Source of the DNA: an uncultured Lichenihabitans sp.
Lineage (GTDB): Bacteria > Pseudomonadota > Alphaproteobacteria > Rhizobiales > Beijerinckiaceae
Direction: 5' to 3'
Length of the DNA stretch: 64,000 nucleotides
NCBI GenBank assembly: GCA_964243405.1
Contig: CAXTFJ010000005.1
Span: 9,882 to 73,881, forward strand
Shown: positions 800-15,355 of the stretch, piece after piece
Numbering within the stretch: position 1 is the stretch's first letter
Layout of the letters: each line of letters starts with the position of its first letter
Notes under the pieces: model-generated
Told to the model about the DNA's origin: nothing
Seen by the model: the letters and a program-made list of their open reading frames with translations, nothing else
The model's database searches: none
Translations under genes and position numbers: made by a program

Positions 800-912
800 G
801 GAGGCTCCGGATGCAGCGCCGCCGCCCCTGCAGGGTTCGTGCCGCCGACCGGGCGCTCGCGACCGGTCCCGTTCTTGCCTGATCCCGGCCAAACGCGCGG
901 AAAGGGGTGGCG

Positions 913-1635
913 ATGACGGTCTCGATCAACTGCGACATGGGCGAAGGCTACGGCCTGTTCAGGATCGGCGACGATGAGGGCATCATGCCGTTCATCACCA
1001 TCGCCAACGTGGCCTGCGGCTTCCACGCCTCCGACCCGAGCGTCATGCACCGCACCGTGCGGCTCGCCAAGCGGCACGGCGTCAAGGTCGGCGCCCACCC
1101 CTCCTTCCCCGACCTCCAGGGCTTCGGGCGCCGCGAGATGAAGATGGGGCGGGACGAACTCGTCGACTGCATCGTCTACCAGGTGGGCGCCCTGAAAGCC
1201 TTCCTGGACCTCGAAGGTTTGGCCCTGAACCACGTCAAGCCGCACGGCGCCCTTTACGGGGTCGCGAGCCGCGACGCCGAGGTCGCGGAGGCGGTCGCGG
1301 AAGCCGTGGCGGTCTTCGAGGTCCCGGTGCTCGGCATGGCGGGCACGGTCCACGAAACCGTCTACGCCGCCAAGGGCCTGACCTTCATCCCCGAATATTA
1401 CACGGACCTCGACTACACGGACGAGGGACGCCTGATCATCACCCGCGAGCACGAGGCCAAGGACCCCGTCGAGGCCGCGCGGCGTGCCGTGCGGGTCGCG
1501 ACGGACGGGCTCGCGACCTCGGTCGGCGGGCGCGAGTTCCCGGTCCGGGCGGAATGTTTCTGCATCCATTCCGACACCCCGAACGCGGTGGCGCTGGCGC
1601 GGGCCGTGAAGGACGCGCTGCAGCCCTGGATGTGA
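913..1635 (+). CDS. pxpA: 5-oxoprolinase subunit A / LamB-YcsF family
   Basis: INCDMGEGYG, ANVACGFHASDP, GAHPSFPD, HVKPHGALY and CIHSDTP motifs; AAAGGGG RBS before ATG 913. Confidence 0.93.
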   Translation: MTVSINCDMGEGYGLFRIGDDEGIMPFITIANVACGFHASDPSVMHRTVRLAKRHGVKVGAHPSFPDLQGFGRREMKMGRDELVDCIVYQVGALKAFLDLEGLALNHVKPHGALYGVASRDAEVAEAVAEAVAVFEVPVLGMAGTVHETVYAAKGLTFIPEYYTDLDYTDEGRLIITREHEAKDPVEAARRAVRVATDGLATSVGGREFPVRAECFCIHSDTPNAVALARAVKDALQPWM

Positions 1636-1638
1636 CGG

Positions 1639-2340
1639 TCAGCCGTTCAGGATCGCGAAGGCACGCACGGGTGAGCCCGAGCCTCCCTTGACCTTGAGCG
1701 GGACGCCGAAGAACTGGAACTCCCCCGCGCCGAGCAGGGCTTCGAGGTTCACCAGCCATTCCCAATGGCTCATGCCGAGGTCGCGGCACAGGCGGTGCTG
1801 GGCGAAGATGTCGTCGGTGGGCTTGTCGGTGGACGGCCCCTCGACGCCTTGCATGCGCGAGCCTCGGTCGTGGAGCCAGCGCGTTGCCTCGACCGTGAGG
1901 CCCGGGTTCTTCCACACGGAGTCGAGCGAGGGATAGGTCCGGGCGTGGAACCCCGTGCACAGCAGCACGATGTGGCCGTCCACCTTGAGGCCGGCGCGCT
2001 CCTCCGCGGCTTCCATGTGGGTCGCCGTGATGTCGCCGAGGTCGGGCACGTGGCGCAGGTCGAAACAGACCGCCTTGCCGAAGAACAGGTCGAGCGGCAT
2101 CTGGTCGACGGGCGCGCCGTCCGGCCCGGTGTGGCGGAACGCATCCACGTGGGTGCCGACGTGGTCGAGCATGGCCAGGAAATTGGTTTGGAACGTCATC
2201 GGGTCGCCCGGAACCCCCAGCCCCAGGGCCCGGCTGTTCTCGTGCGTCAGGTGCTCCGTGATGACCGGGCGCTGAAACAGCTTGTGGGCCGGCATGTTGT
2301 CTTCGAGGGTCAGGCTGAGGTCGATCACCCGTTGCGGCAT
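1639..2340 (-). CDS. Cyclase family metal hydrolase (kynurenine formamidase-like)
   Basis: IDLS N-terminus, HVGTHVDAFRH (HxGTHxDxxxH), E-x-LxNL and GGSGSPVRAFA. Confidence 0.92.
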   Translation of the reverse strand: MPQRVIDLSLTLEDNMPAHKLFQRPVITEHLTHENSRALGLGVPGDPMTFQTNFLAMLDHVGTHVDAFRHTGPDGAPVDQMPLDLFFGKAVCFDLRHVPDLGDITATHMEAAEERAGLKVDGHIVLLCTGFHARTYPSLDSVWKNPGLTVEATRWLHDRGSRMQGVEGPSTDKPTDDIFAQHRLCRDLGMSHWEWLVNLEALLGAGEFQFFGVPLKVKGGSGSPVRAFAILNG

Positions 2341-3400: not shown

Positions 3401-3638
3401 GCGTCAGGAACGTCGTTTGTGTGCAGTCGTATTGAACACTATGGCCGGATGTGCCTTGCAGGCAAGAATAAGGTTCAAACAAATCCTGTGCAGAATGCCG
3501 TGCCTTTGGGCGGCGGGCGCCCACTAGATGGCCTTGCGTACAAAAGACGTTGTTTCTAGGCTAGCGGACGTTCGGCTTCCAGTCGGTGGGCAGCGCTTGC
3601 GGTCAGCCACCAATCGTTTCGATGCAGGCTCCAGCGCC

Positions 3639-4721
3639 GTGTTGCGCATCGAGGGCGTGTCGAAGAGCTACGGGCCCAAGCTCGCGCTCGACGACGTCAC
3701 GTTGAGCTTGGCGGACGATTGCTACGTGGCTCTCCTGGGATCGAGCGGCTCGGGCAAGACCGTCCTGCTGCGCGCCATTGCGGGCTTCGAAACGCTCGAC
3801 CGGGGTAGCGTGATGCTGAGGGGGCAGCCGCTGGCGAGCGTCCCCGCGCACCGGCGCAGCATCGGCTTCGTGTTCCAGAACTTCGCGCTGTTTCCGCACC
3901 TGTCGGTAGAGCAGAACATCGGCTTCGGGCTGCGCAACCGGGCCGAGGGGGCCTTGGCGCCAAAGGTGGTCGCCGACAGGGTCCGGGCCATGGTCCAGCT
4001 GGTGGGCCTCGCGGGATTGGAATCGCGGGCCGTGACGCAGATCTCCGGCGGCCAGCGCCAGCGCGTAGCCCTCGCCCGCACGCTCGTGACCGAACCCCGG
4101 CTGGTTCTGCTCGACGAGCCCCTGGGCGCGCTCGACGCCAACCTCCGCACCCGGATGTGCGGCGAGCTCCGCCGCATCCGCGAGAGGCTCGGCGTGACCT
4201 TCCTTCACGTGACGGGCAGCGAAACCGAGGCTCTCGCGATGGGCGACGAGGTGGTCGTGCTCGACGAAGGCCGGATCGCCCAGGTCGACGCGCCCGACGT
4301 CGTCTACGGACGGCCCGCGGATGCGCGCGTGGCGCGGTTCCTCAACTGCTACAACCTGTTCAGGGGCCGTTCCGGACCGACGGGTTTCGAAGCCGAAGGG
4401 GCCGTGCTGCCCGTCCCCACGGGTCGTGGCGGGTCGAATGAGGCCGTCTACGCGGTGCGCCGCGACCTCATCCTGGTCCGCGACCCCGCCGCGGCCGCGG
4501 CCCCCGACGAAGGGCGGATCGCGGCCGAGTTCGTGACGAGCGAATATTCCGGTCCGTCCGTCACCTCCTTCTTCCGCCTCCCAAGCGGCGCGATCGTCAC
4601 GGTGGACGACCACCTGAGCCACCGCGCCGTGCCCTCGTTCGAGCCCGGGCACCGCTACGACCTGGCGTGGAAGCGGGACGACGCCCTCGTGCTCGGCTCG
4701 GGCCGCGAGCGGCGCGCATGA
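3639..4721 (+). CDS. ABC transporter ATP-binding protein (PotA/MalK-like) with atypical H-loop
   Basis: GSSGSGKT, VFQNFALFPH, ISGGQRQR and LLDEP present; H-loop reads VTGSE. Start uncertain (GTG 3639 preferred; ORF open from 3528). Confidence 0.9.
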   Translation: MLRIEGVSKSYGPKLALDDVTLSLADDCYVALLGSSGSGKTVLLRAIAGFETLDRGSVMLRGQPLASVPAHRRSIGFVFQNFALFPHLSVEQNIGFGLRNRAEGALAPKVVADRVRAMVQLVGLAGLESRAVTQISGGQRQRVALARTLVTEPRLVLLDEPLGALDANLRTRMCGELRRIRERLGVTFLHVTGSETEALAMGDEVVVLDEGRIAQVDAPDVVYGRPADARVARFLNCYNLFRGRSGPTGFEAEGAVLPVPTGRGGSNEAVYAVRRDLILVRDPAAAAAPDEGRIAAEFVTSEYSGPSVTSFFRLPSGAIVTVDDHLSHRAVPSFEPGHRYDLAWKRDDALVLGSGRERRA

Positions 4722-5620
4722 CAGCGATCAGCGACACCGCCCTCGCGACCCCGGTTGCGAGCGCTCCCGCGGTCCGCGGCAACGCCACGCCCTATTGGCT
4801 CATCGCCCCGGGCGTCCTGTGGATGCTCCTGTTCCTCGTCCTGCCCATCGCGATGATGGTCTACGTGTCGTTCTGGACGCAGACGACGTTCAGGATCCAG
4901 CCGATCCTCACCACCAAGAGCTGGCAGACCTTCTTCAGCAGCCCGACCTACCTGGGTGCGCTGTGGACGACGGTCCGCATCTGGCTGACGGTGCTCGCCG
5001 CCACGGTGGTGGTGGGCTACCCGACCGCGCTGTTCGTCGGCCTCCTGGTCCGCAACAAGACGGTCGCGACCGCCCTGCTGGTGCTGTGCGTCATCCCGTT
5101 CTGGACGTCCTTCCTCATCCGCGTGCTCGCCTGGCGCCCGATGCTGGGCGAGCAGGGCGCGATCAACATCATCCTGCAAGACCTTCACCTGATCTCGCAG
5201 CCGATCAGCGCGCTGCTGTTCACGGAACTGTCGGTGGTGATCGGCATGACGCAGATCTACTGCGTCTTCATGGTGGGGCCGATCGCCTTCACCCTGGGCC
5301 GCATCGATCCCAACGTCATCGAGGCGGCCCAGGACCTCGGCGCCAGCTTCTGGCGCATCTTCCGGACAATCATCTTCCCGCTCAGCCTGCCGGGTGTGGT
5401 CACCGGCGCCATCTTCGTGTCGGTGATGGTCTTGGGAGAGTTCGCCACCGCCGCGGCGCTATCGGGCCGCAAGGTCAACCTGCTGGGCAACATCATCGTG
5501 ACGCAGGTGGGCTCGCTCAAATGGGCCTTCGCGGCCGTGGTGGGCGTGGTGCTGACGCTGGTGATGGGCGCGGTCGTGGCGGGCCTGCTCCGGCTCGTCG
5601 ACCTCAGGCGGGAGCTCTAG
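4718..5620 (+). CDS. ABC permease (PotB-like)
   Basis: Multiple TM segments and EAAQDLGA EAA loop; ATGA overlap with the upstream gene. Confidence 0.92.
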   Translation: MTAISDTALATPVASAPAVRGNATPYWLIAPGVLWMLLFLVLPIAMMVYVSFWTQTTFRIQPILTTKSWQTFFSSPTYLGALWTTVRIWLTVLAATVVVGYPTALFVGLLVRNKTVATALLVLCVIPFWTSFLIRVLAWRPMLGEQGAINIILQDLHLISQPISALLFTELSVVIGMTQIYCVFMVGPIAFTLGRIDPNVIEAAQDLGASFWRIFRTIIFPLSLPGVVTGAIFVSVMVLGEFATAAALSGRKVNLLGNIIVTQVGSLKWAFAAVVGVVLTLVMGAVVAGLLRLVDLRREL

Positions 5621-5625
5621 CGCCA

Positions 5626-6471
5626 ATGCGCGCCCCGGCCCTAAAACCCGCCCTCGCGGTCTACACCGCCCTGTTCCTGCTGTTCCTCTACGGCCCGATG
5701 CTGGTGCTCGCCATCCTGTCGTTCCAGACGGGACCCGAGGGCGGACCGCAATTCCCCATCGTCGAATGGTCGACCTACTGGTACCGCGACCTGTTCGGCC
5801 TCAACCCGCCCTCGCGCATCGCGCCCCTGCCGATCCGGGACGGGCTGTTCCGGTCGCTGACGCTCGCGCTCGCCACGACGGTGGTCTCGACCACGCTGGG
5901 GGTGATGTCCGCCCAGGCCTTCCGCGAGCGGTTCAGGGGGTCGGGCGCAGTCTTCTACCTCATCGTGCTCGGCATGATGGTGCCCGGCGTGCTCGTGGGC
6001 CTCGGGACGGCGCTGCTCGCCAACACGTTGGGCATCGACCGCGCGTGGTGGAGCACGTCCTTCGTGCTCCACGTGGTCTACACCTACCCCTTCGCCTTCC
6101 TGGTCATGCTGGCGATCTTCAACCGCTTCGACCCGACGGTCGAGGAGGCCGCCTGGTCGCTCGGCGTCACGCCCCTGCGGACCTTCAGGACCGTGACGTT
6201 CCCCCTGATCTTCCCCGGCGTGCTGTCGGCGATGCTGTTCTGCTTCACGCTGTCCTACGACGAGTTCGCGCGCACGCTGTTCACGTCGGGCCGCGACCTG
6301 ACGCTGCCGTTGGCGATCTACGGCACGTTCTCGGTGGAGATCCACCCCAACATCTTCGCCTTCGGGGTCCTCACCACACTGTTCTCGCTGGCGCTGCTCG
6401 CCGTCTACGCGGCGCTGATGACGCTGTCGGTGCGGCGCGCCCGGCGCGTCCTGGTCCAGGAGGAGGCGTGA
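5626..6471 (+). CDS. ABC permease (PotC-like)
   Basis: TM segments, EEAAWSLG EAA loop, FTLSYDEF and TLPLAIY. Confidence 0.92.
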   Translation: MRAPALKPALAVYTALFLLFLYGPMLVLAILSFQTGPEGGPQFPIVEWSTYWYRDLFGLNPPSRIAPLPIRDGLFRSLTLALATTVVSTTLGVMSAQAFRERFRGSGAVFYLIVLGMMVPGVLVGLGTALLANTLGIDRAWWSTSFVLHVVYTYPFAFLVMLAIFNRFDPTVEEAAWSLGVTPLRTFRTVTFPLIFPGVLSAMLFCFTLSYDEFARTLFTSGRDLTLPLAIYGTFSVEIHPNIFAFGVLTTLFSLALLAVYAALMTLSVRRARRVLVQEEA

Positions 6472-7208
6472 TGGCCGTCAAGGGCGTGGCGATCGTCACG
6501 GGCGCGGGCTCTGGCATCGGGCTCGCCATCGCGGCGCGGCTCGCGCGCGACGGCTACGCGGTCGTGGTGAACGACCTCAGGCCCAAATCCGCCGAGGCCG
6601 CGGTGGCGGCGATCGTCGAGGCGGGCGGCTCGGCGGTCGCGGCACCGGGCGACGTGTCGCGCGAGGCGGACGTGGCCGCGATCGTGGCCGCGGCCGACGC
6701 GCTCGGGCCCTGCACCCTGCTCGCCAGCAACGCGGGCTTCGTCCACCAAGCCCGGTTCGTGGACCTCACGGCCGCCGATTGGGACCGGATGTTCGCGGTC
6801 CACGTACGCGGCGCCTTCCTGACCGCTCACGCGGTTCTGCCGGGCATGATCGCGCGGGGGCGCGGCAGCATCGTCTTCACAGCCTCCCAGCTGGGGCAGA
6901 TCGGCGGGGTCGAGCTCACCCATTACAGCGCCGCGAAGGCGGCCCTCATCGGACTCACCAAGTCGCTGGCGCGCGAGGTCAGCGCGCTCGGCGTGCGGGT
7001 CAACGCGGTCGCGCCCGGGCCCATCAACACGCCGCTGGTCAAGGACCTGTCGGAGGACTGGCGGCGCGCCAAGGCAGCCGAGCTGCCCCTGGGTCGCTTC
7101 GGCGAGCCCGAGGACGTGGCCGCCACCGTCGCGTTCCTGGCCTCCGACGAGGCTCGGATCTACGTGGGCCAGACGCTCGGCCCTAATTCCGGGGACGTGA
7201 TGCTGTGA
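6471..7208 (+). CDS. SDR oxidoreductase (FabG-like)
   Basis: TGAGSGIG, SNAG, YSAAK and VNAVAPG. Confidence 0.92.
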   Translation: MAVKGVAIVTGAGSGIGLAIAARLARDGYAVVVNDLRPKSAEAAVAAIVEAGGSAVAAPGDVSREADVAAIVAAADALGPCTLLASNAGFVHQARFVDLTAADWDRMFAVHVRGAFLTAHAVLPGMIARGRGSIVFTASQLGQIGGVELTHYSAAKAALIGLTKSLAREVSALGVRVNAVAPGPINTPLVKDLSEDWRRAKAAELPLGRFGEPEDVAATVAFLASDEARIYVGQTLGPNSGDVML

Positions 7209-7215
7209 GGGCGCC

Positions 7216-7968
7216 ATGCGGACGGTTCTGATCACGGGCGCGGGCATCGGCATCGGCCGGGCCACCGCGCAGGCCTTCGCCAAGGCGGGGTACCGGGTGA
7301 TCGTGACCGACATCCTGGAGCGCGACGGCGCGGAGGTGGCGGACGGCATCGGGGCCGAGGGCGGCACGGCCGAGTTCCACCCGCTCGACGTCAGCTCCAC
7401 CCTTGACGCGGACGCGCTCGTCGCGAAGGTCGAGGCGGCCCACGGGCCGCTCGACTGCATCGTGGCCAACGCCGGCATCGCGCACCGGGTGCCGCTCGAC
7501 CAGCTCACCGACGCCAAATGGGACCACACCTTCGAGGTCGACCTGAAAGGCATGCTGCGCGTCATCCGCCCGGCCGTGCCCGCCATGCGCCGCGCGGGCC
7601 GCGGCACGATCATCTGCCTGTCCTCCATCATGGGGGTGGCCTACGGCTGGGACGAGCACGTCGCCTATTCTTCCGCCAAAGCGGGCGTGGTGGGCCTCGT
7701 GCGGGGGCTCGCGGTGGAACTCGCGCGCTCGGGCCTTCGCGTGAACGGCATCGCGCCCGGCTACGTGCGGACCGCGCAGCTGCTGTCCGAGGAGCACTCG
7801 CTGGGGCCTGCGGGCGCGGAGGCGGCTCCCGCCTTCATTCCGATGGGTCGGCTCGGGGAGCCGGGCGACATCGCCGACGTGGCGCTGTTCCTGGCTTCCG
7901 ACGCCGCCCGCTACATGACGGGGCAAGTGATCGCGGTCGACGGCGGTCTGCTGGTCGGCCGGTACTGA
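7216..7968 (+). CDS. SDR oxidoreductase
   Basis: TGAGIGIG, ANAG, YSSAK and VNGIAPG. Confidence 0.92.
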   Translation: MRTVLITGAGIGIGRATAQAFAKAGYRVIVTDILERDGAEVADGIGAEGGTAEFHPLDVSSTLDADALVAKVEAAHGPLDCIVANAGIAHRVPLDQLTDAKWDHTFEVDLKGMLRVIRPAVPAMRRAGRGTIICLSSIMGVAYGWDEHVAYSSAKAGVVGLVRGLAVELARSGLRVNGIAPGYVRTAQLLSEEHSLGPAGAEAAPAFIPMGRLGEPGDIADVALFLASDAARYMTGQVIAVDGGLLVGRY

Positions 7969-7989
7969 AACGACAAAGGAGATCAGGCG

Positions 7990-9222
7990 ATGACAGACAG
8001 GCATTTCGACCGACGCACGCTTCTGAAAACCGGAGCAGGGGCCGCCGCGCTTGCGCTGGGCGGGGGCACGCCGCTTCTGTCCTCGCGCCGCGCCTACGCG
8101 GCCGCGAGCGCGGTCGGCAACGAGCAGCTCCGCACCATCGGCCTGTCGGTCACGGTGCAGGACCGTATCCTGGCCGATTTCAAGAAGGAATCGGGTGTCG
8201 GCTCGACCTCGGGCACCGCCGCGACCTTCCCGGACGCCCAGACCAAGATCCTGTCGGGCTCCAAGGATTACGATTGCTGGGAAACAATCGGCGAGCGCCT
8301 GCCCGCCGTGGTCCAGACCAACAACATCGACGCGCTGCCGGTGTCGGAGGTGAAGAACTGGGCCAACATCCGGGACACGTTCACCAAGGCCAATCCCAAG
8401 TGGGATTCCAAGGCGCAGATCACCGGCCAGATCTGGGCCGACGACGCCCATACGAAGCTGTGGATGGTGCCGGCCGTCTACAATTACGACTCGATCGGCT
8501 ACAACCCCGACAAGCTTTCCGCCGAGGAGGCCAACAGCTGGACGGCCATCTTCGACCCCAAATACAAGGGCCGGTCGGGCCTCAACACCGATCCGCTGAT
8601 CGCCTTCGGCCAGGCGATCCTGGCCATGACGTCGCTGAAGCTGCTCGACGCCAAGAACCCGGGCAACCCCACCAAGGAGGAGATCGAGGAAGGCGCCAAG
8701 TTCCTGATCTCCAAGAAGAAGGATGGCCAGTTCCGCGCCCTGTGGGGTGACTTCGGCGAGCTCGTCAACCTGCTGGCGTCGGGCGAGATGGTGGTGTGCG
8801 ACGCCTGGCAACCCGCCGTCATGGCCGTCAAGGCGCAGGGCAAAGCCTGCAAGTACGCGGTTCCGAAGGAAGGCTATCGCGCCTGGTCGATCGGCCCCTC
8901 GATGATCGCCGGCACGCCCAACAAGGACGCTGTGCTGGCCTACGCGGACTATTGGCTGTCGGGGCCGCCCGGCATCACCGTTTCGGAGCAGGGCTACTAC
9001 TCGCCCTCGACCAACATCCAGAAGGTGATGGACCCGGACCGATACGCCTTCTGGTACGAGGGCAAGCCCTGGAAGGGCGCCACCGACCGCGGCATCAAGG
9101 AAGGCGACCTGCGCGACGGCGGCTCGCTCCCCGAGCGCGCCGCCCACGTGGCCTACTGGCACCAGTGGCCGGACGAGTACGACATGCTCATCTCGAAGTG
9201 GGACGAGTTCCTCAACGCGTGA
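7990..9222 (+). CDS. ABC substrate-binding protein (PotD/PotF-like fold) with Tat signal
   Basis: DRRTLLK twin-arginine signal; SWTAIFDP and PKEGYRAW motifs; AAAGGA RBS. Confidence 0.9.
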
Positions 9223-9249
9223 CGGTTCTGCCCTGACGCCAGGGTGCCG

Positions 9250-9278
9250 CCCTTCTCCCGCGTCCCGTGGGAGAAGGG
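9250..9278. repeat. Perfect 10-bp inverted repeat (REP-like or mRNA-stabilising hairpin) after the SBP gene
   Basis: CCCTTCTCCC-N9-GGGAGAAGGG with no U-tract, between the SBP and ATPase genes. Confidence 0.6.
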
Positions 9279-9293
9279 AATTTGGAGCTTCCC

Positions 9294-10394
9294 TTGACCT
9301 ACGATCTCGAGCTGATCGGCGTCGGCAAGACCTACGACAGCGGCGCCCCGGCCGTGATCGACTTCGACCTCACCGTGACCAAGGGCGAGTTCGTGGCCTT
9401 CCTGGGCCCGTCGGGCTGCGGCAAGACCACGACGTTGCGCATGATCGCGGGCTTCGAGCGGATCACGCGGGGCGACATCTTCATCCGCGGCAAGCGCATC
9501 AACGACCTGCCGCCCGAACGCCGCCCGACCTCCATGATCTTCCAGAACTACGCCCTGTTCCCGCACATGAGCGTGCGGCGCAACGTGGGCTACGGGCTGG
9601 AGGTCAAGGGGCTCGCCAAGCCCGAGCGCGACCGCAAGGTCGATCGCATCCTCGACACGCTGGGGCTCGCCGAGGTGGCGGACCACAGGCCCGACCGGCT
9701 GTCGGGCGGCCAGCGGCAGCGGATCGCGCTGGCGCGCGGCCTCGTGGTGGAGCCAGACATCCTGCTGCTGGACGAACCCTTGGGCGCGCTCGACGCCAAC
9801 CTGCGCCACGCCATCCAGGCGGAACTCAAGCTGCTGCAGGTCAACCTCGGCATCACCTTCATCTTCGTGACCCACGCGCAGTCCGAGGCGCTGACGATGT
9901 CGGACCGCATCGTGGTGATGAACGGCGGCCGCATCGAACAGGTGTCCTCGCCGCGCGATCTGTATACCCGGCCGAAGACGCGCTTCGTGGCCCAATTCAT
10001 CGGCCGCAACACGATTTTGACCGGCGTGCTGGACAGCGTCGACGGCGGGCTCGGCCGCGTCAGCACTCCATTCGGCCGTTTCACGGGCGTCGCGGACGGC
10101 GCCGTCAAGCCCGGTGCTGCCGCGTCGCTCGTGGTGCCGGCCGAAGCCTTCACCATGGCGGCCGCGGAGGCGGGCGCCGCGGAAGCGGACGGCAACGCGG
10201 TCGACGCGCGGATCGAAACGCGCGACGTGGTCGGTCCCATCGTGCGGTTCCAGCTTGCCGTTCCGGGAGGCCAGCAGGTCGCGCTGGAAGGCCATATGGG
10301 GCGCTACGGCGGGAGTTTCGCGGCCGGCTCGCCGGTCCGCGTGTCCTGGAACGCGCAAAGCGCTACCGTGATCCCCAGTGCGGAAGCGGCCTGA
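9294..10394 (+). CDS. Second ABC ATP-binding protein (PotA-like)
   Basis: [22 protein letters not shown] and VTHAQ; TTG start with GGAG RBS (ORF open from 9267). Confidence 0.92.
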
Positions 10395-10420
10395 GCCGCC
10401 CGCGTCACCAGGAGGAAGAG

Positions 10421-11302
10421 ATGCCCAAAGAGATCCTGTGCGGGTTCGGGGTCGATGTCGACGCGGTGGCGGGCTGGCTCGGCTCCTACGGCGGCGAGGA
10501 CTCGCCCGACGATATTTCCCGCGGGCTGTTCGCGGGCGAGGTGGGCAGCCCGCGGCTGCTCAGGATGTTCGAGCGGCTCGGCCTCAAGACGACCTGGTTC
10601 ATCCCCGGCCATTCGATTGAGACGTTCCCGGCCGAGATGCAGGCGGTCGCCGATTCTGGCCACGAGATCGGCATCCACGGCTACAGCCACGAGAACCCGA
10701 TCGCGATGACGCGCGAGCAGGAGACCGAAATCCTCGACAAGTGCATCGAGCTCGTCACCAAGCTGTCGGGCAAGCGCCCGACCGGCTACGTGGCGCCCTG
10801 GTGGGAGTTCTCGACCGTCACCAACGAACTGCTGCTGGAACGCGGCATCAAATACGACCACTCGCTGATGCACAACGACCACCAGCCCTACTACGTCCGG
10901 GTGGGCGACAGCTGGACCAAGATCGACTACGCGGGCAAGCCGTCGGACTGGATGGTGCCGCTCAAGCGGGGGGTGGAGACCGACCTGATCGAGATCCCGG
11001 CCTCGTGGACGCTCGACGACCTGCCGCCCATGATGTTCATCAAGAAGGCGCCCAACAGCCACGGCTTCGTCAACCCGCACGACATCGAGCAGATGTGGCG
11101 CGACCAGTTCGACTGGGTCTACCGGGAATACGACTACGCGGTGTTCCCCATCACCATCCATCCCGACGTGTCGGGCCGCCCGCACGTGCTGATGATGCTG
11201 GAGCGGCTCTACGCCCACATGATCTCGCATCCGGGGGTGCGCTTCGTGACCATGAACGAGATGGCCGACGACTTCGCGAAGCGCTCGCCGCGCGCCAAGT
11301 AA
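10421..11302 (+). CDS. Polysaccharide deacetylase (CE4) family protein, PuuE/HpPgdA-like
   Basis: [24 protein letters not shown] and [11 protein letters not shown]. Confidence 0.9.
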
Positions 11303-11366
11303 GTTTTCAGCCGAGACCGTCCGCCCGCGCGGGCGGGAAGCGGAACCGAGCGGGGGAGGGCGGCTC

Positions 11367-11693
11367 ATGTGCGCGCTATGCGGCGTTCTCGGCGGCTCGG
11401 AGCACTGGGCGGACGCGCACGACCGGCCCGGCGCCTTCACGCGGAACACGGGGCCCGTAGAGCGGCGGCGCGAGCGCGCGCGGCGCGTCGCGCGGGCCAA
11501 CGACCTGCTGGGACCCCTCGGCCTGACCCTGGGGGACTGGCAGGGCAGCGCCTACCTGCTGTCGACCCGCACGGGTAAGACCGAGATCGTCGACACGCTG
11601 GCCCACCTCTGGGCCTCGGCGGAACGGCTGCTCGGCCGCCCGGTCGACCCGCTCGACCCCGTTTGGCTGGGCCGCCTGGAGGCGCGCGGGTGA
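11367..11693 (+). CDS. Hypothetical 108-aa protein with N-terminal CxxC...HW
   Basis: MCALCGVLGGSEHW; GC-rich codon usage; GGGGAGG RBS; GTGA overlap with the CobW gene. Confidence 0.8.
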   Translation: MCALCGVLGGSEHWADAHDRPGAFTRNTGPVERRRERARRVARANDLLGPLGLTLGDWQGSAYLLSTRTGKTEIVDTLAHLWASAERLLGRPVDPLDPVWLGRLEARG

Positions 11694-12700
11694 GCGGGGT
11701 CCCGCCCCGCACGCCCGTGGTCCTGCTCACCGGCTTCCTCGGCTCGGGCAAGACGACGCTGCTGGCCCGCCTGCTCAGGGACCCGGCCCTGTCCGACAGC
11801 GCGGTGCTGATCAACGAGTTCGGCGAGGTCGGGCTCGACCACCACCTGCTGGAGCGGGTGGACGAGACCACCGTGCTGCTGAAGTCCGGGTGCCTGTGCT
11901 GCACCGTGCGGGGCGAACTCGCGACCGCCCTGCGCGACCTGCACTCCCGCCGCACGCGGGGCCTCGTGCCACCGTTCCGCCGCGTGGTGCTGGAAACGAC
12001 GGGTCTCGCCGACCCGCTGCCGGCGCTCACCACGATCGCGGCCGAGCCGGTGCTGCGCCATCATTTCCGCGTGGGCGCCGTGGTGACGACCGTGGACGCC
12101 GTCAACGCGCGCGACCAGCTCCGCCGCCAGCCCGAGAGCGTCAAGCAGGTCGCGGTCGCGGACAGGCTGGTGCTGACCAAGACGGACCTGTGCGGTGAAG
12201 CGGAGGAGGCGGCCGTCGTTCTCGCCCTGCGCACCCTCAACCCGGACGCGCCGATCGTGACCGTCGCGGACCTCGACGCCCAGGCGCTTCTTTCCGATCC
12301 GTCGGCCGCCGCGGGCTTCAGCGAGTTCCGATGCCTGCCGATCGCCGTCGACAGTGGAGCCACGAGCGCCGAGCGCCACGGTGGGTCCGTGGCCTCCCTG
12401 TCGCTGGTGATCGAGGCGCCGCTCGACTGGACGCTGTTCGGCCTGTGGCTCAGCCTGCTGCTGAGCCGTCACGGCGACCGCGTGCTGCGCGTCAAGGGCC
12501 TGCTCAATATCCAGGGCGCCGTCGGGCCGGTGGCGGTGCACGGCGTTCAGAGCCTCGTCCACGTGCCCACCCACCTGGCCGCCTGGCCCGATGCGGAGCG
12601 CAGCTCCCGCCTCGTGTTCATCACCCGCGACCTTGCGCCCACCCTCATCGCCCGCTCGCTGCAGGCCTTCGGGGTGACGCCCGTGCCCGTTCCCGCCTGA
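11690..12700 (+). CDS. COG0523/CobW-family metallochaperone GTPase
   Basis: GFLGSGKTT, NEFGE, GCLCC, ETTGLADP, LTKTD and RVKGL CobW C-domain. Confidence 0.93.
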   Translation: MSGVPPRTPVVLLTGFLGSGKTTLLARLLRDPALSDSAVLINEFGEVGLDHHLLERVDETTVLLKSGCLCCTVRGELATALRDLHSRRTRGLVPPFRRVVLETTGLADPLPALTTIAAEPVLRHHFRVGAVVTTVDAVNARDQLRRQPESVKQVAVADRLVLTKTDLCGEAEEAAVVLALRTLNPDAPIVTVADLDAQALLSDPSAAAGFSEFRCLPIAVDSGATSAERHGGSVASLSLVIEAPLDWTLFGLWLSLLLSRHGDRVLRVKGLLNIQGAVGPVAVHGVQSLVHVPTHLAAWPDAERSSRLVFITRDLAPTLIARSLQAFGVTPVPVPA

Positions 12701-12701
12701 C

Positions 12702-13889
12702 GTGGGGATCCCCGCGAGGCGACCCCGGCTGCGCGTGCTCGGCACGGAGATCACCCTGGTCGAGCCGCTGCGACGGCAGGCGGAGCGGGACCTCGGCATC
12801 GACCTCGTCTTCGAGACGCTCGACTTCCCGTCCGCGCAGCGCAAGGCCGCCGTCGAGCCGGGCAGCTTCGACATCTACGACCAGTGTTTCCACAACCTCG
12901 ACATCGTCTGGTTCTGGCGCGCGATCCAGCCCATCGCGCTCGATCGGATCGCCTGCTGGGGGGACGTGAGCGACCTCACCAAGGCCGGCCGCCTCGGGCC
13001 GCAAGCCTCGACCGGGCGCGGCGACGCTCCGGTGAAGAAGCTCTACGTCCAGCCGGACCATTCGCTCGGGTCGGCGCGGACCGACCGCATCAGCATGCTG
13101 CCGACCGTGCACAACCTCGATTCCTTCGCCTACTGGCCCGACCTGTTCGGGGACCGGCGGCCCGAGGCGGCGAGCTGGGGGTGGCTGTTCGACCGGGAAG
13201 CCAAAGGGTGCCTCGCGCTCGTCGACGAGCCGGCGATCGGCGTGTTCGACGCGGCGCTGGCGCTCGAAGCCCGGGGTGAGGTCGCGTTCGACGATATCGG
13301 CAACCTGTCAATCGCGGAGATCGACAGGTTGATGGCCCTGCTCTGGGGCTATCGCAAGGACGGGCATTTCTCGGGGTTGTGGCGCACGGCCGAACGCGCC
13401 GCCGCCAGCATGGTGGCGGGCAAGGCGCGCATCGGCAGCATGTGGTCGCCGGGCATCGCGGCGGTGATGCGGGCCGGCCGGCAGGTGGTCGAAGCCGTGC
13501 CGCGGGAGGGCTATCGGGCCTGGCACAGCGGCCTGTGCCTGTCCGCGCGGCTGACGGGCGAGGCGCTCGACACGGCCTACCGCTACCTGAACTGGTGGCT
13601 CGACGGCGCGGCGAGCGCCGTCATGGCGCGACAGGGCTTCTACATGTCGGTGCCCGAGCGGGCGCGAGCCCGCATGAAGCCCGCCGAATGGGCCTACTGG
13701 TACGACGGCAAGCCGGCCTCGACCGATCTCCCCGGCCCCGACGGGCAAGCCATGATCGGGGCGGGACGGTCGCGACCCGGAGGCTCCTACTGGGAACGGG
13801 CGAGCCGCATTTCCGTGTGGAACACCACGATGGACGAGTACAATTACCTCGCGCGCCAATGGGCCCAGTTCGCCGCTTCCTTCGATTGA
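12702..13889 (+). CDS. Substrate-binding-protein paralogue without a recognisable signal peptide
   Basis: Aligns by eye along its length with 7990..9222 (PREGYRAW, YWYDGKP, GGSYWER, DEY) but starts directly in the mature domain. Confidence 0.82.
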   Translation: MGIPARRPRLRVLGTEITLVEPLRRQAERDLGIDLVFETLDFPSAQRKAAVEPGSFDIYDQCFHNLDIVWFWRAIQPIALDRIACWGDVSDLTKAGRLGPQASTGRGDAPVKKLYVQPDHSLGSARTDRISMLPTVHNLDSFAYWPDLFGDRRPEAASWGWLFDREAKGCLALVDEPAIGVFDAALALEARGEVAFDDIGNLSIAEIDRLMALLWGYRKDGHFSGLWRTAERAAASMVAGKARIGSMWSPGIAAVMRAGRQVVEAVPREGYRAWHSGLCLSARLTGEALDTAYRYLNWWLDGAASAVMARQGFYMSVPERARARMKPAEWAYWYDGKPASTDLPGPDGQAMIGAGRSRPGGSYWERASRISVWNTTMDEYNYLARQWAQFAASFD

Positions 13890-14158
13890 GCGTCCCGGGG
13901 CACTTTCCGGTCCGTTTCGGCACGGGGTCGTCGTGTGCCGGGCAGACGACCGAGCGGATGGCCATGACCGGAGCCCTGGCAGGCAGACGCACGGTACCCG
14001 TCGCCACCCGGGTCGTCGAAAAGCCGTTCGACAACGCGCTCTGCCTGCCGGTGGGCGAAGCGTTCCAGCGTGGTTGTGGCGCAAGGCGCGTCGCGCGTCG
14101 CCTTGGCATCGGCCGTGCTACGGCGAAGGCCGATCCATCTGTTTCGTGCAGGACGACC

Positions 14159-15355
14159 ATGCCCACCGTCGAGACCAAACGCCTCCTCGCCGATCTGGAT
14201 CACCTGCGCACGATTGGCGCCTTCAAGACCGGCGTGCACCGGCCGACCTTCGGGCCCGAGGACATGGAAAGCCGACGCTGGCTCATGGCGCAGATGGACG
14301 CCGTCGGACTCGAGCCCATTCTGGACGGCATCGGCAACGTCATGGGACGGCATCGCGGACCTGGCCCGCATCTCCTGGTGGGCAGCCACATCGAGACGCA
14401 GAACCAGGCGGGCTGGCTCGATGGCGCGCTCGGCGTCATGACGGCGCTCGCTTTGGCCCGGGCCGGGCTCGCGGTCGACGTTTGCGCCTACGCGGACGAG
14501 GAAGGCCACTGGGGCAACATGATCGGCAGCCGCAGCCTGGTGGGCGACCTCGCGGAGGACGACATCGACCGCGCGCGCAATCGCGAGGGCGTTCCCCTGC
14601 GCGATGCCCTGGAAACCGCAGGTCTGGCCGGCTTGCCGCGCCTCGCCCTCGAAGGCGACCGCTACCGGGGCGCCCTCGAGCTGCACATCGAGCAGGGCAC
14701 GCAACTGGAGGGCAGGGATCTCCGGATCGGGGTTGTCACCGGGATCGTGGCGATCCGCCAGTTCAAGATCGTGGTCGAGGGCCAGCAGGACCATACGGGC
14801 GGCACCACGATGGCGGAGCGGCGCGACGCCGCCCTTTCGGCCGTGCGGCTGATGGCGGCGATCGACATAGAATTCCCCAGGGTCTGCGGTGAACGCAGCG
14901 TGTGGACCACCGGCCGCATCCTGGTCGAACCCAACCAGCCGATGATCATTCCGGGCCGCTGCGAACTCTCCTTCTCGTTCCGCGACCTTTCCGAAACCGT
15001 GATGGACCGGATGGAAGCCTGCCTTCGCGCGCTGGTGCGCGAGAGCGTCCGGCGCGAACGCTGCGCGGTCACGATCGAAGAGGTCAGCCGGCTGAAGCCG
15101 GAACTCTGCGACGGCCGCATCGTCGAAGCGTTCGAGGCCTCGGCGCGGGACCTCTGTCCCGGCGCCTGGCAGAGGATGCAAAGCGGCGCGTTGCACGACA
15201 GCCAGGTGCTGGCGCGCCGCGTGCCGATGGGCATGCTGTTCGTCCCCTCGATCGGCGGCATCAGCCACCATTGGACCGAGGACACCAGGCGCGAGGACCT
15301 CGAACTCGGCTGCCAGGTCATGGCCGGAGCCGCGGAACGTCTGTTGGCGCGCTGA
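14159..15355 (+). CDS. M20 Zn-dependent amidohydrolase (allantoate amidohydrolase/N-carbamoylase family)
   Basis: GSHIET, DGALG, DEEG, ELHIEQG, DHTGGTTM, SGALHD, GGISHH; ATG 14159. Confidence 0.92.
   Translation: MPTVETKRLLADLDHLRTIGAFKTGVHRPTFGPEDMESRRWLMAQMDAVGLEPILDGIGNVMGRHRGPGPHLLVGSHIETQNQAGWLDGALGVMTALALARAGLAVDVCAYADEEGHWGNMIGSRSLVGDLAEDDIDRARNREGVPLRDALETAGLAGLPRLALEGDRYRGALELHIEQGTQLEGRDLRIGVVTGIVAIRQFKIVVEGQQDHTGGTTMAERRDAALSAVRLMAAIDIEFPRVCGERSVWTTGRILVEPNQPMIIPGRCELSFSFRDLSETVMDRMEACLRALVRESVRRERCAVTIEEVSRLKPELCDGRIVEAFEASARDLCPGAWQRMQSGALHDSQVLARRVPMGMLFVPSIGGISHHWTEDTRREDLELGCQVMAGAAERLLAR

What the first reader, a model, noticed from the sequence alone, without database searches (positions are those of the whole stretch)
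11367..13889. Translationally coupled module: CxxC microprotein + CobW GTPase + signal-less binding protein
Seen: a 108-aa ORF starting MCALCG...EHW overlaps (GTGA) a COG0523 GTPase (GCLCC), followed 1 bp later by an SBP paralogue. The trio sits between two metallohydrolases (CE4 and M20). Established: COG0523 proteins deliver metals to client enzymes, sometimes with small activator partners. Inference: an undescribed metal-insertion or maturation system in which the Cys/His microprotein is a metal shuttle or GTPase co-factor for the cluster's hydrolases. This is the best candidate for a new system in the metabolic zone.
Basis: partly seen in the sequence, partly recalled or inferred. Interest (0 to 1): 0.7.

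Follow-up and report, generated by a model that had tools for sequence, protein, structure and literature searches.

The report
Small partner protein of CobW-type metallochaperone
A conserved, unnamed 108-residue protein with a cysteine-rich tip is almost always encoded between a metal-dependent ring-opening hydrolase (the Helicobacter pylori HP0310 type) and a CobW-type GTPase, so the small protein and the GTPase are probably a dedicated metal-loading crew for that enzyme.

Summary
The ORFs lie at 11367-11693 (108 aa), 11690-12700 (COG0523, GTGA overlap) and 12702-13889 (binding-protein paralogue that cannot carry a signal peptide).

The small ORF is a real gene family: 583 homologues, 462 clusters at 50% identity, no Pfam, NCBIfam or PDB match. 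It has a near-invariant N-terminus, M-C2-x-L-C5-G...H13-W14.

- It is followed by a COG0523 gene in essentially every locus, and in 37 of 46 loci a CobW start overlaps its stop.
- It co-occurs almost perfectly with one enzyme, the HP0310/HpPgdA-type CE4 hydrolase (31 of 33 genomes among 401 of the order; 7 of 7 among 401 of the phylum).
- H. pylori HP0311 is a member, so the module is HP0310-HP0311-HP0312.
- The M20 hydrolase and the signal-less binding protein are not conserved parts.

Best reading (about 0.6, inferred, not shown): the microprotein is a metal-binding adaptor for a dedicated, self-activating COG0523 GTPase that loads the buried Asp-His-His site of the CE4 cyclic imidase. Its disordered tail resembles the CxxCGC nickel site of E. 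coli HypB, supplied here on a separate protein.

Verdict: a new variant of the G3E metallochaperone theme, undescribed in the literature I could search.

The parts
10421..11302 (+). CE4 hydrolase of the HP0310/HpPgdA-like subfamily (proposed cyclic imidase); the presumed client enzyme
   Evidence: PF01522. It matches PDB 3qbu/4ly4 at E 7e-151 over its full length and is 72% identical to the H. pylori protein with no gaps. The metal and catalytic residues D12, D14, H86, H90 and H247 and the pocket residues W127, W128, W196 and L201 are all kept. It co-occurs with the microprotein in 31 of 33 and 7 of 7 genomes.
11367..11693 (+). 108-aa microprotein of an unnamed family (H. pylori HP0311 is a member). 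It has a disordered N-terminal tail M-C2-x-L-C5-G6...H13-W14 and a folded alpha/beta domain (residues 30-108).
   Evidence: 583 homologues and 462 representatives. No Pfam, NCBIfam or PDB match. Conserved residues are listed. The AF2 model has pLDDT 84, above 89 from residue 30, and no fold relative in the PDB. HP0311 matches the family profile at probability 99.8, E 1.5e-29.
11690..12700 (+). COG0523 (CobW-type) G3E GTPase, translationally coupled to the microprotein (GTGA overlap)
   Evidence: PF02492 and PF07683. Walker A, CLCC and TKTD are present. The RxKG arginine-finger motif R267-V-K269-G270 is conserved in 42 module CobWs (motif defined in PMC13001444). It is distinct from the four other COG0523 paralogues of this genome.
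12702..13889 (+). Signal-less paralogue of the operon's Tat-exported solute-binding protein; a lineage-specific accessory gene, not a core part
   Evidence: PF13416. In-frame stop 9 codons upstream of the start. 28% identical to SBP1 from its mature domain onward. Orthologues follow CobW only in L003, L006, L007, L008 and L010, and they begin at the same RLRVLGTEITL, whereas the beta/gamma homologues carry Tat signals.
6471..10394 (+). Upstream operon context: two SDR dehydrogenases (6471-7208, 7216-7968), Tat-signal binding protein SBP1 (7990-9222) and an ABC ATPase (9267-10394). This is probably the uptake and oxidation part of the pathway that feeds the imidase.
   Evidence: Pfam and NCBIfam matches. 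The same genes precede CE4 in L001, L003, L006, L007 and L008.
14159..15355 (+). M20 carbamoylase/allantoate-amidohydrolase-type hydrolase, 269 nt downstream of SBP2; a neighbour here but not part of the conserved module
   Evidence: PF01546 and TIGR01879. It is absent next to the module in the other loci, apart from a 33%-identical M20 gene 4 kb away in L015.

Best explanation
The microprotein and the COG0523 GTPase form a two-component maturation system dedicated to the HP0310-type CE4 cyclic imidase encoded just upstream.

Proposed mechanism (each step inferred):
1. After removal of Met1, the flexible N-terminal tail of the microprotein binds a divalent metal through the free amino group, Cys2, Cys5 and probably His13 or an acidic neighbour. 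This is the same arrangement as the CxxCGC site on the disordered N-terminal extension of E. coli HypB, here supplied on a separate protein.
2. The folded alpha/beta domain (residues 30-108) docks the tail onto the GTPase and/or the apo-enzyme.
3. The metal is exchanged between the tail and the CxCC site of the GTPase.
4. GTP hydrolysis, driven by the GTPase's own RxKG arginine finger, releases the metal into the buried Asp14-His86-His90 site of the CE4 subunit. That site is closed off once the tetramer forms.

The identity of the metal is open: Zn was assumed in the crystal structure, and the thiolate/amine tail would also suit Ni or Co.

Shown: the gene family, its conserved residues, its linkage and co-occurrence, the intact catalytic motifs of the partners, and the disorder-plus-domain architecture. 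Not shown: metal binding, protein contacts, and any requirement for enzyme activity.
For: 1. Linkage to COG0523.
- In 16 of 16 genome loci with room, the microprotein is followed by CobW, and again in the loci from 401 genomes of the order.
- In 37 of 46 loci an in-frame CobW start overlaps the microprotein stop by 1-11 nt. The median distance from the stop to the P-loop is 38 nt.

2. When the triad is split, the microprotein stays with CobW. Cases: L015 and L017 (CE4 about 6 kb upstream), G124 (CE4 on another contig), G203 (no close CE4), and H. pylori L052 (a restriction-modification insertion between CE4 and the pair).

3. Link to the client.
- Among 401 genomes of the order, 32 have the microprotein, 32 have an HP0310-type CE4 and 31 have both (Fisher p 5.5e-44; the genomes are not phylogenetically independent; 18 genera).
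- Among 401 genomes of the phylum, the same 7 have both.
- The median spacing from the CE4 stop to the microprotein start is 28 nt.

4. The client is a metal enzyme with a buried site.
- All HP0310 ligands are kept.
- The structure paper describes an ion bound to D14/H86/H90 and concealed under the surface of a tetramer (PMC3084791).

5. The GTPase is catalytically competent. Walker A, CxCC, GLADP, TKxD and RxKG are conserved in all 42 module CobWs (PMC13001444).

6. The tail.
- M1 is conserved in 97%, C2 in 96%, C5 in 95%, W14 in 95% and H13 in 79% of 116 representatives, always at the extreme N-terminus.
- It is predicted to be disordered, in front of a confident domain.
- HypB's site uses Cys2, Cys5, Cys7 and the N-terminal amine on a disordered extension, and it modulates GTPase activity (PMC12284835).

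7. Co-divergence. The microprotein's distances track CobW (partial r 0.68 given CE4) and CE4 (0.42 given CobW), while the CobW-CE4 correlation given the microprotein is only 0.25. This is suggestive only.

8. The module spans Alpha-, Beta- and Gammaproteobacteria and Campylobacterota. HP0311 matches at probability 99.8.
Against: - No experiment or structure shows metal binding or contacts.
- The one in-silico attempt at a complex was inconclusive. It used a natural read-through fusion from L012. The model had pLDDT 67 and pTM 0.54, the tail gained no confidence, the CobW C-terminal domain was poorly modelled, and no coordinates or PAE were available.
- His13 is not invariant (79%).
- One genome (G169, 99% complete) has a 61%-identical CE4 with all metal ligands but no microprotein at all (best E 0.76) and no adjacent CobW. 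The pair is therefore not universally required.
- Fungal relatives such as HxnM work without any known such partner (PMC9304392).
- Recombinant HP0310 made in E. coli without its neighbours still contained a heavy ion. From the title of the cited 2007 paper, the P. putida imidase was expressed and its substrate specificity measured without any mention of helpers.
- Gene linkage alone cannot separate a metal-delivery role from another CobW-dependent role.
Confidence: 0.6

Rival explanations
1. The microprotein is a client-specificity adaptor or regulator of the GTPase that binds no metal itself. Its domain bridges CobW and CE4, and its Cys pair is structural or redox-sensing.
For: It shares the linkage and co-divergence evidence of the main reading. 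H13 is only 79% conserved. COG0523 proteins already have their own high-affinity CxCC site.
Against: The strict anchoring of Cys2 and Cys5 at the free N-terminus, on a disordered tail, is the signature of the HypB nickel site. It is hard to explain for a purely structural role. No second Cys pair exists to form a structural zinc site.
Confidence: 0.2
2. The microprotein is a subunit, activator or inhibitor of the CE4 enzyme itself, and CobW is linked to it only through the enzyme.
For: Near-perfect co-occurrence with the HP0310-type CE4. Partial correlation with CE4 of 0.42.
Against: When the genes are separated, the microprotein always stays with CobW, overlapping its start, and not with CE4. 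HP0310 crystallised as a homotetramer without it.
Confidence: 0.1
3. The microprotein-CobW pair serves general metal homeostasis or another client, and sits next to CE4 for regulatory convenience.
For: Many COG0523 proteins act in the zinc-limitation response. G203 keeps the pair next to a GntR regulator without a close CE4. HP0312 is reported as acid-induced.
Against: Presence of the pair predicts the CE4 in 31 of 32 and 7 of 7 genomes and is otherwise rare (about 8% of the order, under 2% of the phylum). This genome has four other COG0523 paralogues, which form a separate clade.
Confidence: 0.07
4. The small ORF is a non-functional or mis-called reading frame.
For: It has no family annotation. 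RefSeq calls some members with a truncated start.
Against: There are 583 homologues of constant length with conserved motifs across four bacterial classes, a confident predicted fold, and its own ribosome-binding site.
Confidence: 0.01

Closest known systems
E. coli HypB N-terminal extension (CxxCGC high-affinity Ni site) and the HypA-HypB pair of [NiFe]-hydrogenase maturation
   Same: The partner is a G3E P-loop GTPase. The motif begins at Cys2 after Met removal, with Cys5 and Gly6 at the same positions, on an intrinsically disordered N-terminal segment that has helical propensity at residues 3-7. A small separate partner protein (HypA) that binds metal at its extreme N-terminus is the paradigm for this superfamily.
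   Different: The third cysteine (Cys7) is absent; His13-Trp14 follow instead. The tail sits on a separate 108-aa protein with its own new domain, not on the GTPase. The GTPase is COG0523 (CxCC, C-terminal domain, RxKG), not HypB. The client is a mononuclear hydrolase, not hydrogenase. There is no sequence or fold similarity to HypA.
UreE-UreG (urease maturation)
   Same: A small metal-donating protein is encoded next to a G3E GTPase and the hydrolase it matures.
   Different: There is no similarity to UreE and there are no UreD/UreF scaffold genes. The metal site is mononuclear Asp-His-His rather than dinickel with a carbamylated lysine.
Nha3 (P47K/epsilon), the COG0523 activator of Fe-type nitrile hydratase
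   Same: It is the only well-studied case of a COG0523 protein encoded beside, and dedicated to, one hydrolytic metalloenzyme with a buried site. The CxCC motif is essential there.
   Different: Nha3 works without a small partner protein. The client fold and metal site are different, and the triad's CobW fell far below the NCBIfam cut-offs for all named COG0523 equivalogs.
H. pylori HP0310 (HpPgdA)-HP0311-HP0312
   Same: It is the same three families in the same order. CE4 is 72% identical, HP0311 matches the family profile at probability 99.8, and HP0311's stop overlaps the start of HP0312.
   Different: In H. pylori the neighbour is a CN_hydrolase (HP0309) rather than SDRs plus an ABC importer. 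The strain examined carries a restriction-modification insertion between HP0310 and HP0311. HP0310 is published as a peptidoglycan deacetylase whose true substrate is disputed.
Cyclic imide hydrolases of the CE4_HpPgdA_like group (P. putida YZ-26 imidase; A. nidulans HxnM)
   Same: The window's CE4 belongs to the same subfamily. HxnM acts directly after an SDR-type dehydrogenase (HxnW) that produces the imide, and two SDR genes precede the CE4 here.
   Different: The substrate of the window enzyme is unknown. No accessory proteins have been reported for those enzymes in the papers I could read.

Membership tests
COG0523 subfamily of G3E GTPases (gene 11690-12700) | CobW/HypB/UreG nucleotide-binding domain with a P-loop, plus NKxD/TKxD | tested here: met
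   PF02492 at E 2e-43; GFLGSGKT at 15-22; TKTD at 163
COG0523 subfamily of G3E GTPases (gene 11690-12700) | CxCC metal-binding motif in switch I | tested here: met
   CLCC at 68-71. All 42 module CobWs have CxCC; motif definition.
COG0523 subfamily of G3E GTPases (gene 11690-12700) | C-terminal domain with the invariant RxKG arginine finger | tested here: met
   PF07683 at E 5e-20. R267-V-K269-G270 is conserved at 90% or more; motif definition from PMC13001444.
Named COG0523 equivalogs (CobW of B12 synthesis, ZigA, YjiA-type PRK11537) | Score above the NCBIfam curated cut-off | tested here: not met
   169 bits against a cut-off of 361 (PRK11537), 113 against 332 (CobW) and 92 against 600 (ZigA). 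There is no long His-stretch like that of the B12 CobWs.
CE4_HpPgdA_like (HP0310-type, proposed cyclic imidase) (gene 10421-11302) | Close full-length similarity to HP0310 | tested here: met
   E 7e-151 to PDB 3qbu; 72% identity over 293 residues with no gaps
CE4_HpPgdA_like (HP0310-type, proposed cyclic imidase) (gene 10421-11302) | Asp-His-His metal triad, catalytic Asp and His, and pocket-closing Trp/Leu residues | tested here: met
   D14, H86, H90; D12, H247; W127, W128, W196, L201 (residues defined in PMC3084791)
CE4_HpPgdA_like (HP0310-type, proposed cyclic imidase) (gene 10421-11302) | Cyclic imide hydrolase activity and metal dependence | not testable with these tools
   Activity is known only for relatives (HxnM, P. 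putida imidase). Recombinant HP0310 was inactive on all substrates tried by Shaik et al..
PuuE-type metal-independent allantoinase/imidase (e.g. BpIH) | Glu-His-Trp replaces the Asp-His-His triad | tested here: not met
   The window enzyme keeps Asp-His-His and matches PuuE and 3S6O only at E 1e-12; definition from PMC11424739.
HypB-type N-terminal CxxCGC nickel site (microprotein 11367-11693) | Cys2-x-x-Cys5-Gly6 at the extreme N-terminus on a disordered segment | tested here: met
   M1 97%, C2 96%, C5 95%, G6 74%. Residues 1-29 have low pLDDT. Definition.
HypB-type N-terminal CxxCGC nickel site (microprotein 11367-11693) | Third cysteine (Cys7), and location on the GTPase itself | tested here: not met
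   Position 7 is V/L/I/A, and the motif is on a separate protein. The microprotein therefore works like this site at most; it is not a member.
HypA / UreE / FmdB-type zinc-ribbon small partners | Family profile match or fold similarity | tested here: not met
   No Pfam or NCBIfam hit at E 0.01 or better, no PDB sequence hit, and a best Foldseek E of 0.34
Periplasmic solute-binding protein, family 8 (gene 12702-13889) | SBP_bac_8 fold | tested here: met
   PF13416 at E 2e-10; 28% identity to SBP1
Periplasmic solute-binding protein, family 8 (gene 12702-13889) | Export signal | tested here: not met
   A stop codon lies 9 codons upstream of the start, and the protein begins at the first strand of the mature domain.

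The most novel reading that the evidence does not exclude
The MCxLCG...HW microprotein family (including H. pylori HP0311) is the first dedicated small metal-binding partner of a COG0523 GTPase. It acts as a HypB-like N-terminal metal site supplied in trans, and it defines a bacterial COG0523-client pair whose client, the HP0310-type cyclic imidase, can be read straight from the genome. A corollary is that H. pylori 'PgdA' would be a chaperone-matured small-molecule amidohydrolase. Its native metal may not be zinc, which could explain why the recombinant enzyme was inactive in vitro.
Probability: 0.4. Interest if true: 0.8.

Novelty: new variant of a known kind. Interest (0 to 1): 0.66.

Why it matters
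COG0523 proteins are the largest and least understood branch of the G3E metallochaperones. Reviews stress that most of their clients are unknown and that they are thought to act alone. This module offers three things.
- A genetically obvious client for one COG0523 lineage.
- A previously unnamed partner protein whose tail mimics the nickel site of HypB.
- A compact three-gene system, present in cultured non-pathogens such as Methylobacterium, Lichenibacterium and Paraburkholderia, in which metal selection, hand-over and GTP-gated insertion into a buried site can be reconstituted.

It also reframes the long-standing puzzle of H. pylori HP0310. That protein is annotated as a peptidoglycan deacetylase, yet it has a closed small-molecule pocket and showed no activity in vitro. 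Its two downstream genes have been ignored.

Tried and rejected
1. Family and fold identification of the microprotein found nothing: Pfam and NCBIfam, PDB by sequence, Foldseek against the PDB.
2. In-silico complex. No multimer tool was available, so I used a natural in-frame read-through fusion (L012 read with TGA=W).
   - MAFFT misaligned the microprotein-only rows whenever CobW-only rows were present, so alignment A2 was discarded.
   - Alignment A3 had a deep microprotein part but only three sequences for the CobW part.
   - The model was inconclusive, and no coordinates or PAE are exposed.
3. I first thought the CE4 might be a BpIH/PuuE-type imidase. This was rejected: that branch is metal-independent and only distantly similar.
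4. I considered the microprotein as a trans arginine finger, because R37 and R40 are conserved. This was downgraded: the CobW has its own RxKG motif.
5. Long family members looked like possible Rosetta-stone fusions. They are read-through or frameshift products of adjacent genes and are weak evidence.
6. The CobW tree shows the genome's other paralogues as a separate clade, but the deep branches are unresolved. Monophyly of the module CobWs is not proven.
7. A natural control failed to support an absolute requirement: the lone CE4 of G169 keeps all metal ligands.
9. The promoter and terminator scan of 10300-14400 found nothing.
10. The Edmonds/Giedroc COG0523 survey and the 2009 PgdA paper are not held. 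A prior description in subscription journals cannot be excluded.
Full report
**Observation**

The three ORFs are exactly as described.
- The 108-aa ORF spans 11367-11693 and begins MCALCGVLGGSEHW.
- The COG0523 gene starts at GTG 11690, which overlaps the microprotein's TGA as GTGA, and ends at 12700.
- A binding-protein paralogue starts at GTG 12702, one base after the CobW stop.

Pfam and NCBIfam identify the neighbours.
- Upstream, in one long operon: an ABC ATPase, permeases, two SDRs (6471-7208 and 7216-7968), the Tat-signal binding protein SBP1 (7990-9222), a second ATPase (9267-10394), and a CE4 'polysaccharide deacetylase' (10421-11302).
- Downstream, after a 269-nt gap: an M20 carbamoylase-type hydrolase (14159-15355).

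The binding-protein paralogue has an in-frame stop 9 codons upstream of its start. It aligns with SBP1 only from the first strand of the mature protein. It therefore cannot be exported.

**The microprotein is a real, unnamed family**

- It has 583 homologues of about 108 aa in the 5.8-billion-protein collection, all labelled 'hypothetical'.
- An exhaustive HMMER scan found 462 clusters at 50% identity.
- It matches no Pfam or NCBIfam model, no PDB sequence and no PDB fold.
- Among 116 full-length representatives the N-terminus is almost fixed: M1 97%, C2 96%, L4 80%, C5 95%, G6 74%, H13 79%, W14 95%.
- R37, R40, N45, D57-W58, G70, W82 and D94-P95-L96 follow.
- AlphaFold2 with 101 sequences gives a confident domain for residues 30-108: one helix, three strands and two helices, with pLDDT of about 89-98. 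The first 29 residues, which carry the Cys/His motif, have low confidence.

**Linkage**

- In 17 loci from species genomes (Lichenihabitans, Lichenibacterium, Lichenifustis, Methylobacterium, Bradyrhizobium, and beta- and gammaproteobacterial MAGs), the microprotein is followed by a COG0523 gene in all 16 that extend far enough.
- A CE4 gene of 78-93% identity lies directly upstream in 13 of the 17. L002 has a truncated remnant, and in L015 and L017 the CE4 lies a few kb upstream.
- The M20 gene is not conserved there.
- The signal-less binding protein follows CobW only in five Lichenihabitantaceae-type loci.

Whole-genome profiles were sampled twice.
- Of 401 genomes of the same order, 32 contain the microprotein and 32 contain an HP0310-type CE4 (E of 1e-60 or better). 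Thirty-one contain both, nearly always within a few hundred bases and in the order CE4, microprotein, CobW. Fisher p is 5.5e-44, though the genomes are not independent (18 genera).
- Of 401 genomes spread over the phylum, the same seven have both.

Across 46 loci, an in-frame CobW start overlaps the microprotein's stop by 1-11 nt in 37. The median gap from CE4 to the microprotein is 28 nt.

When the three genes are separated, the microprotein stays with CobW. This holds in L015/L017, G124, G203 and the H. pylori strain.

**The client enzyme**

- The CE4 protein matches PDB 3qbu/4ly4, H. pylori HP0310 (HpPgdA), at E 7e-151. It is 72% identical to the H. pylori protein over all 293 residues with no gaps.
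- Every residue described for the HP0310 site is kept: metal ligands D14, H86 and H90; D12 and H247; and the bulky W127, W128, W196 and L201 that close the pocket.
- Shaik et al. found a tetramer with a concealed heavy ion, which they assumed to be Zn. They found no polysaccharide groove and no activity on any substrate tested, and concluded that the substrate is a small molecule.
- NCBI's CDD names the group 'CE4_HpPgdA_like (proposed as cyclic imidase)'.
- A. nidulans HxnM, 64% identical to the P. putida YZ-26 imidase homologue, opens a cyclic imide ring directly after an SDR-type dehydrogenase step. This fits the two SDRs and the importer upstream in this window.
- The metal-independent PuuE/BpIH imidases are a different branch.

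**H. pylori has the same module**

- HP0312 is a COG0523 member.
- In an H. pylori chromosome the order is CN_hydrolase (HP0309), CE4 (HP0310), a restriction-modification insertion in that strain, a 125-aa ORF, and CobW. The 125-aa ORF's stop overlaps the CobW start.
- That ORF begins MCVLCGELISSFHWSD and matches the family profile with probability 99.8% and E 1.5e-29. HP0311 is therefore a member.
- In the searchable library only four papers mention HP0311 or HP0312, and none assigns them a function. No paper links imidases with COG0523.
- Shaik et al. used the gene context only to guess substrates.
- Reviews describe COG0523 proteins as probably acting alone, with mostly unknown clients.

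**The GTPase**

- All 42 module CobWs keep Walker A, CxCC, GLADP and TKxD. They also keep the RxKG motif (R267-V-K269-G270 here), which a 2026 preprint shows to be a built-in arginine finger. This is a complete, self-activating COG0523.
- It scores far below the cut-offs of the named equivalogs: B12 CobW, ZigA and the YjiA type.
- The genome has four other COG0523 paralogues, and these form their own clade in a tree of 55 sequences. The deep branches are unresolved.
- A strongly diverged CobW subclade coincides with the most diverged CE4 and microprotein sequences.
- The microprotein's pairwise distances track CobW best (partial r 0.68) and also CE4 (0.42). The CobW-CE4 correlation given the microprotein is 0.25. 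This fits a bridging role but is confounded by phylogeny.

**Mechanism**

The closest functional analogy is within the same GTPase superfamily.
- E. coli HypB carries a disordered N-terminal extension starting Cys2-x-x-Cys5-Gly-Cys7.
- After Met removal, that extension binds Ni(II) with picomolar affinity through the N-terminal amine and the thiolates.
- It is essential for hydrogenase maturation and influences GTPase activity.

The microprotein has Cys2, Cys5 and Gly6 at the same positions on a predicted disordered tail, always at the very N-terminus. It lacks Cys7 and sits on a separate protein.

I therefore propose a sequence of steps.
1. The tail binds the metal.
2. The folded domain docks on CobW and/or apo-CE4.
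3. The metal exchanges with the CxCC site.
4. GTP hydrolysis releases the metal into the Asp-His-His site before the tetramer closes.

All of these steps are inferred.

The attempt to model a complex with a natural read-through fusion was inconclusive.

**Evidence against an absolute requirement**

- G169 has a ligand-complete CE4 without any microprotein.
- Fungal HxnM has no known helper.
- Recombinant HP0310 contained a metal when made alone.

**Verdict**

The M20 hydrolase and the signal-less binding protein are not parts of it.
- It is a new variant of the G3E metallochaperone theme, not described in the literature I could search.
- I could not read the Edmonds/Giedroc survey or the 2009 PgdA paper.

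Noticed in passing
window 12702-13889: The signal-less paralogue (28% identity) of the operon's Tat-exported binding protein is coupled to the CobW stop, 1 nt away and with no ribosome-binding site of its own. Orthologues occur only in Lichenihabitantaceae-type clusters. Its function as a cytoplasmic binding-protein fold is unknown.
   Followed up: partly
L052 4936-6748 (H. pylori chromosome CP078448.1): In this strain a two-gene cassette on the opposite strand is inserted between HP0310 and HP0311. It comprises a 230-aa ORF and an N6_N4 DNA methyltransferase, probably a restriction-modification system. It separates the enzyme from its putative helpers.
   Followed up: no
clusters of P0235 (Paraburkholderia caribensis, Burkholderia gladioli plasmid): RefSeq records give 95-aa versions of proteins that other sources call as 115 aa. 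The shorter start would cut off the conserved MCxLCG...HW tail, so public annotations may systematically hide the motif.
   Followed up: no
window 907-2340 and 3528-6470: Upstream lie a PxpA (LamB/YcsF) 5-oxoprolinase-subunit gene, a divergent cyclase gene, and a second ABC ATPase with permeases. The operon thus holds two ATPase genes, and lactam- and imide-opening enzymes lie close together.
   Followed up: partly
L002 7582-7824: In one Lichenihabitans MAG only the last 81 codons of the CE4 gene remain upstream of an intact microprotein-CobW pair. This is either a truncation or an assembly artefact.
   Followed up: partly
L048 7497-9629 (G203): Here the microprotein-CobW pair sits directly after a GntR/FCD regulator gene with no HP0310-type CE4 nearby. 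The genome's only relative is 36% identical and on another contig, so the pair may have a different client here.
   Followed up: partly
L052 3104-3988; window 14159-15355; L015 13037-14224: A second C-N hydrolase of varying family tends to lie near the module: a CN_hydrolase in H. pylori, and M20 here and in a betaproteobacterium. It may take the half-amide produced by the imidase. HP0312 is reported as acid-induced, which would fit an ammonia-yielding pathway.
   Followed up: no
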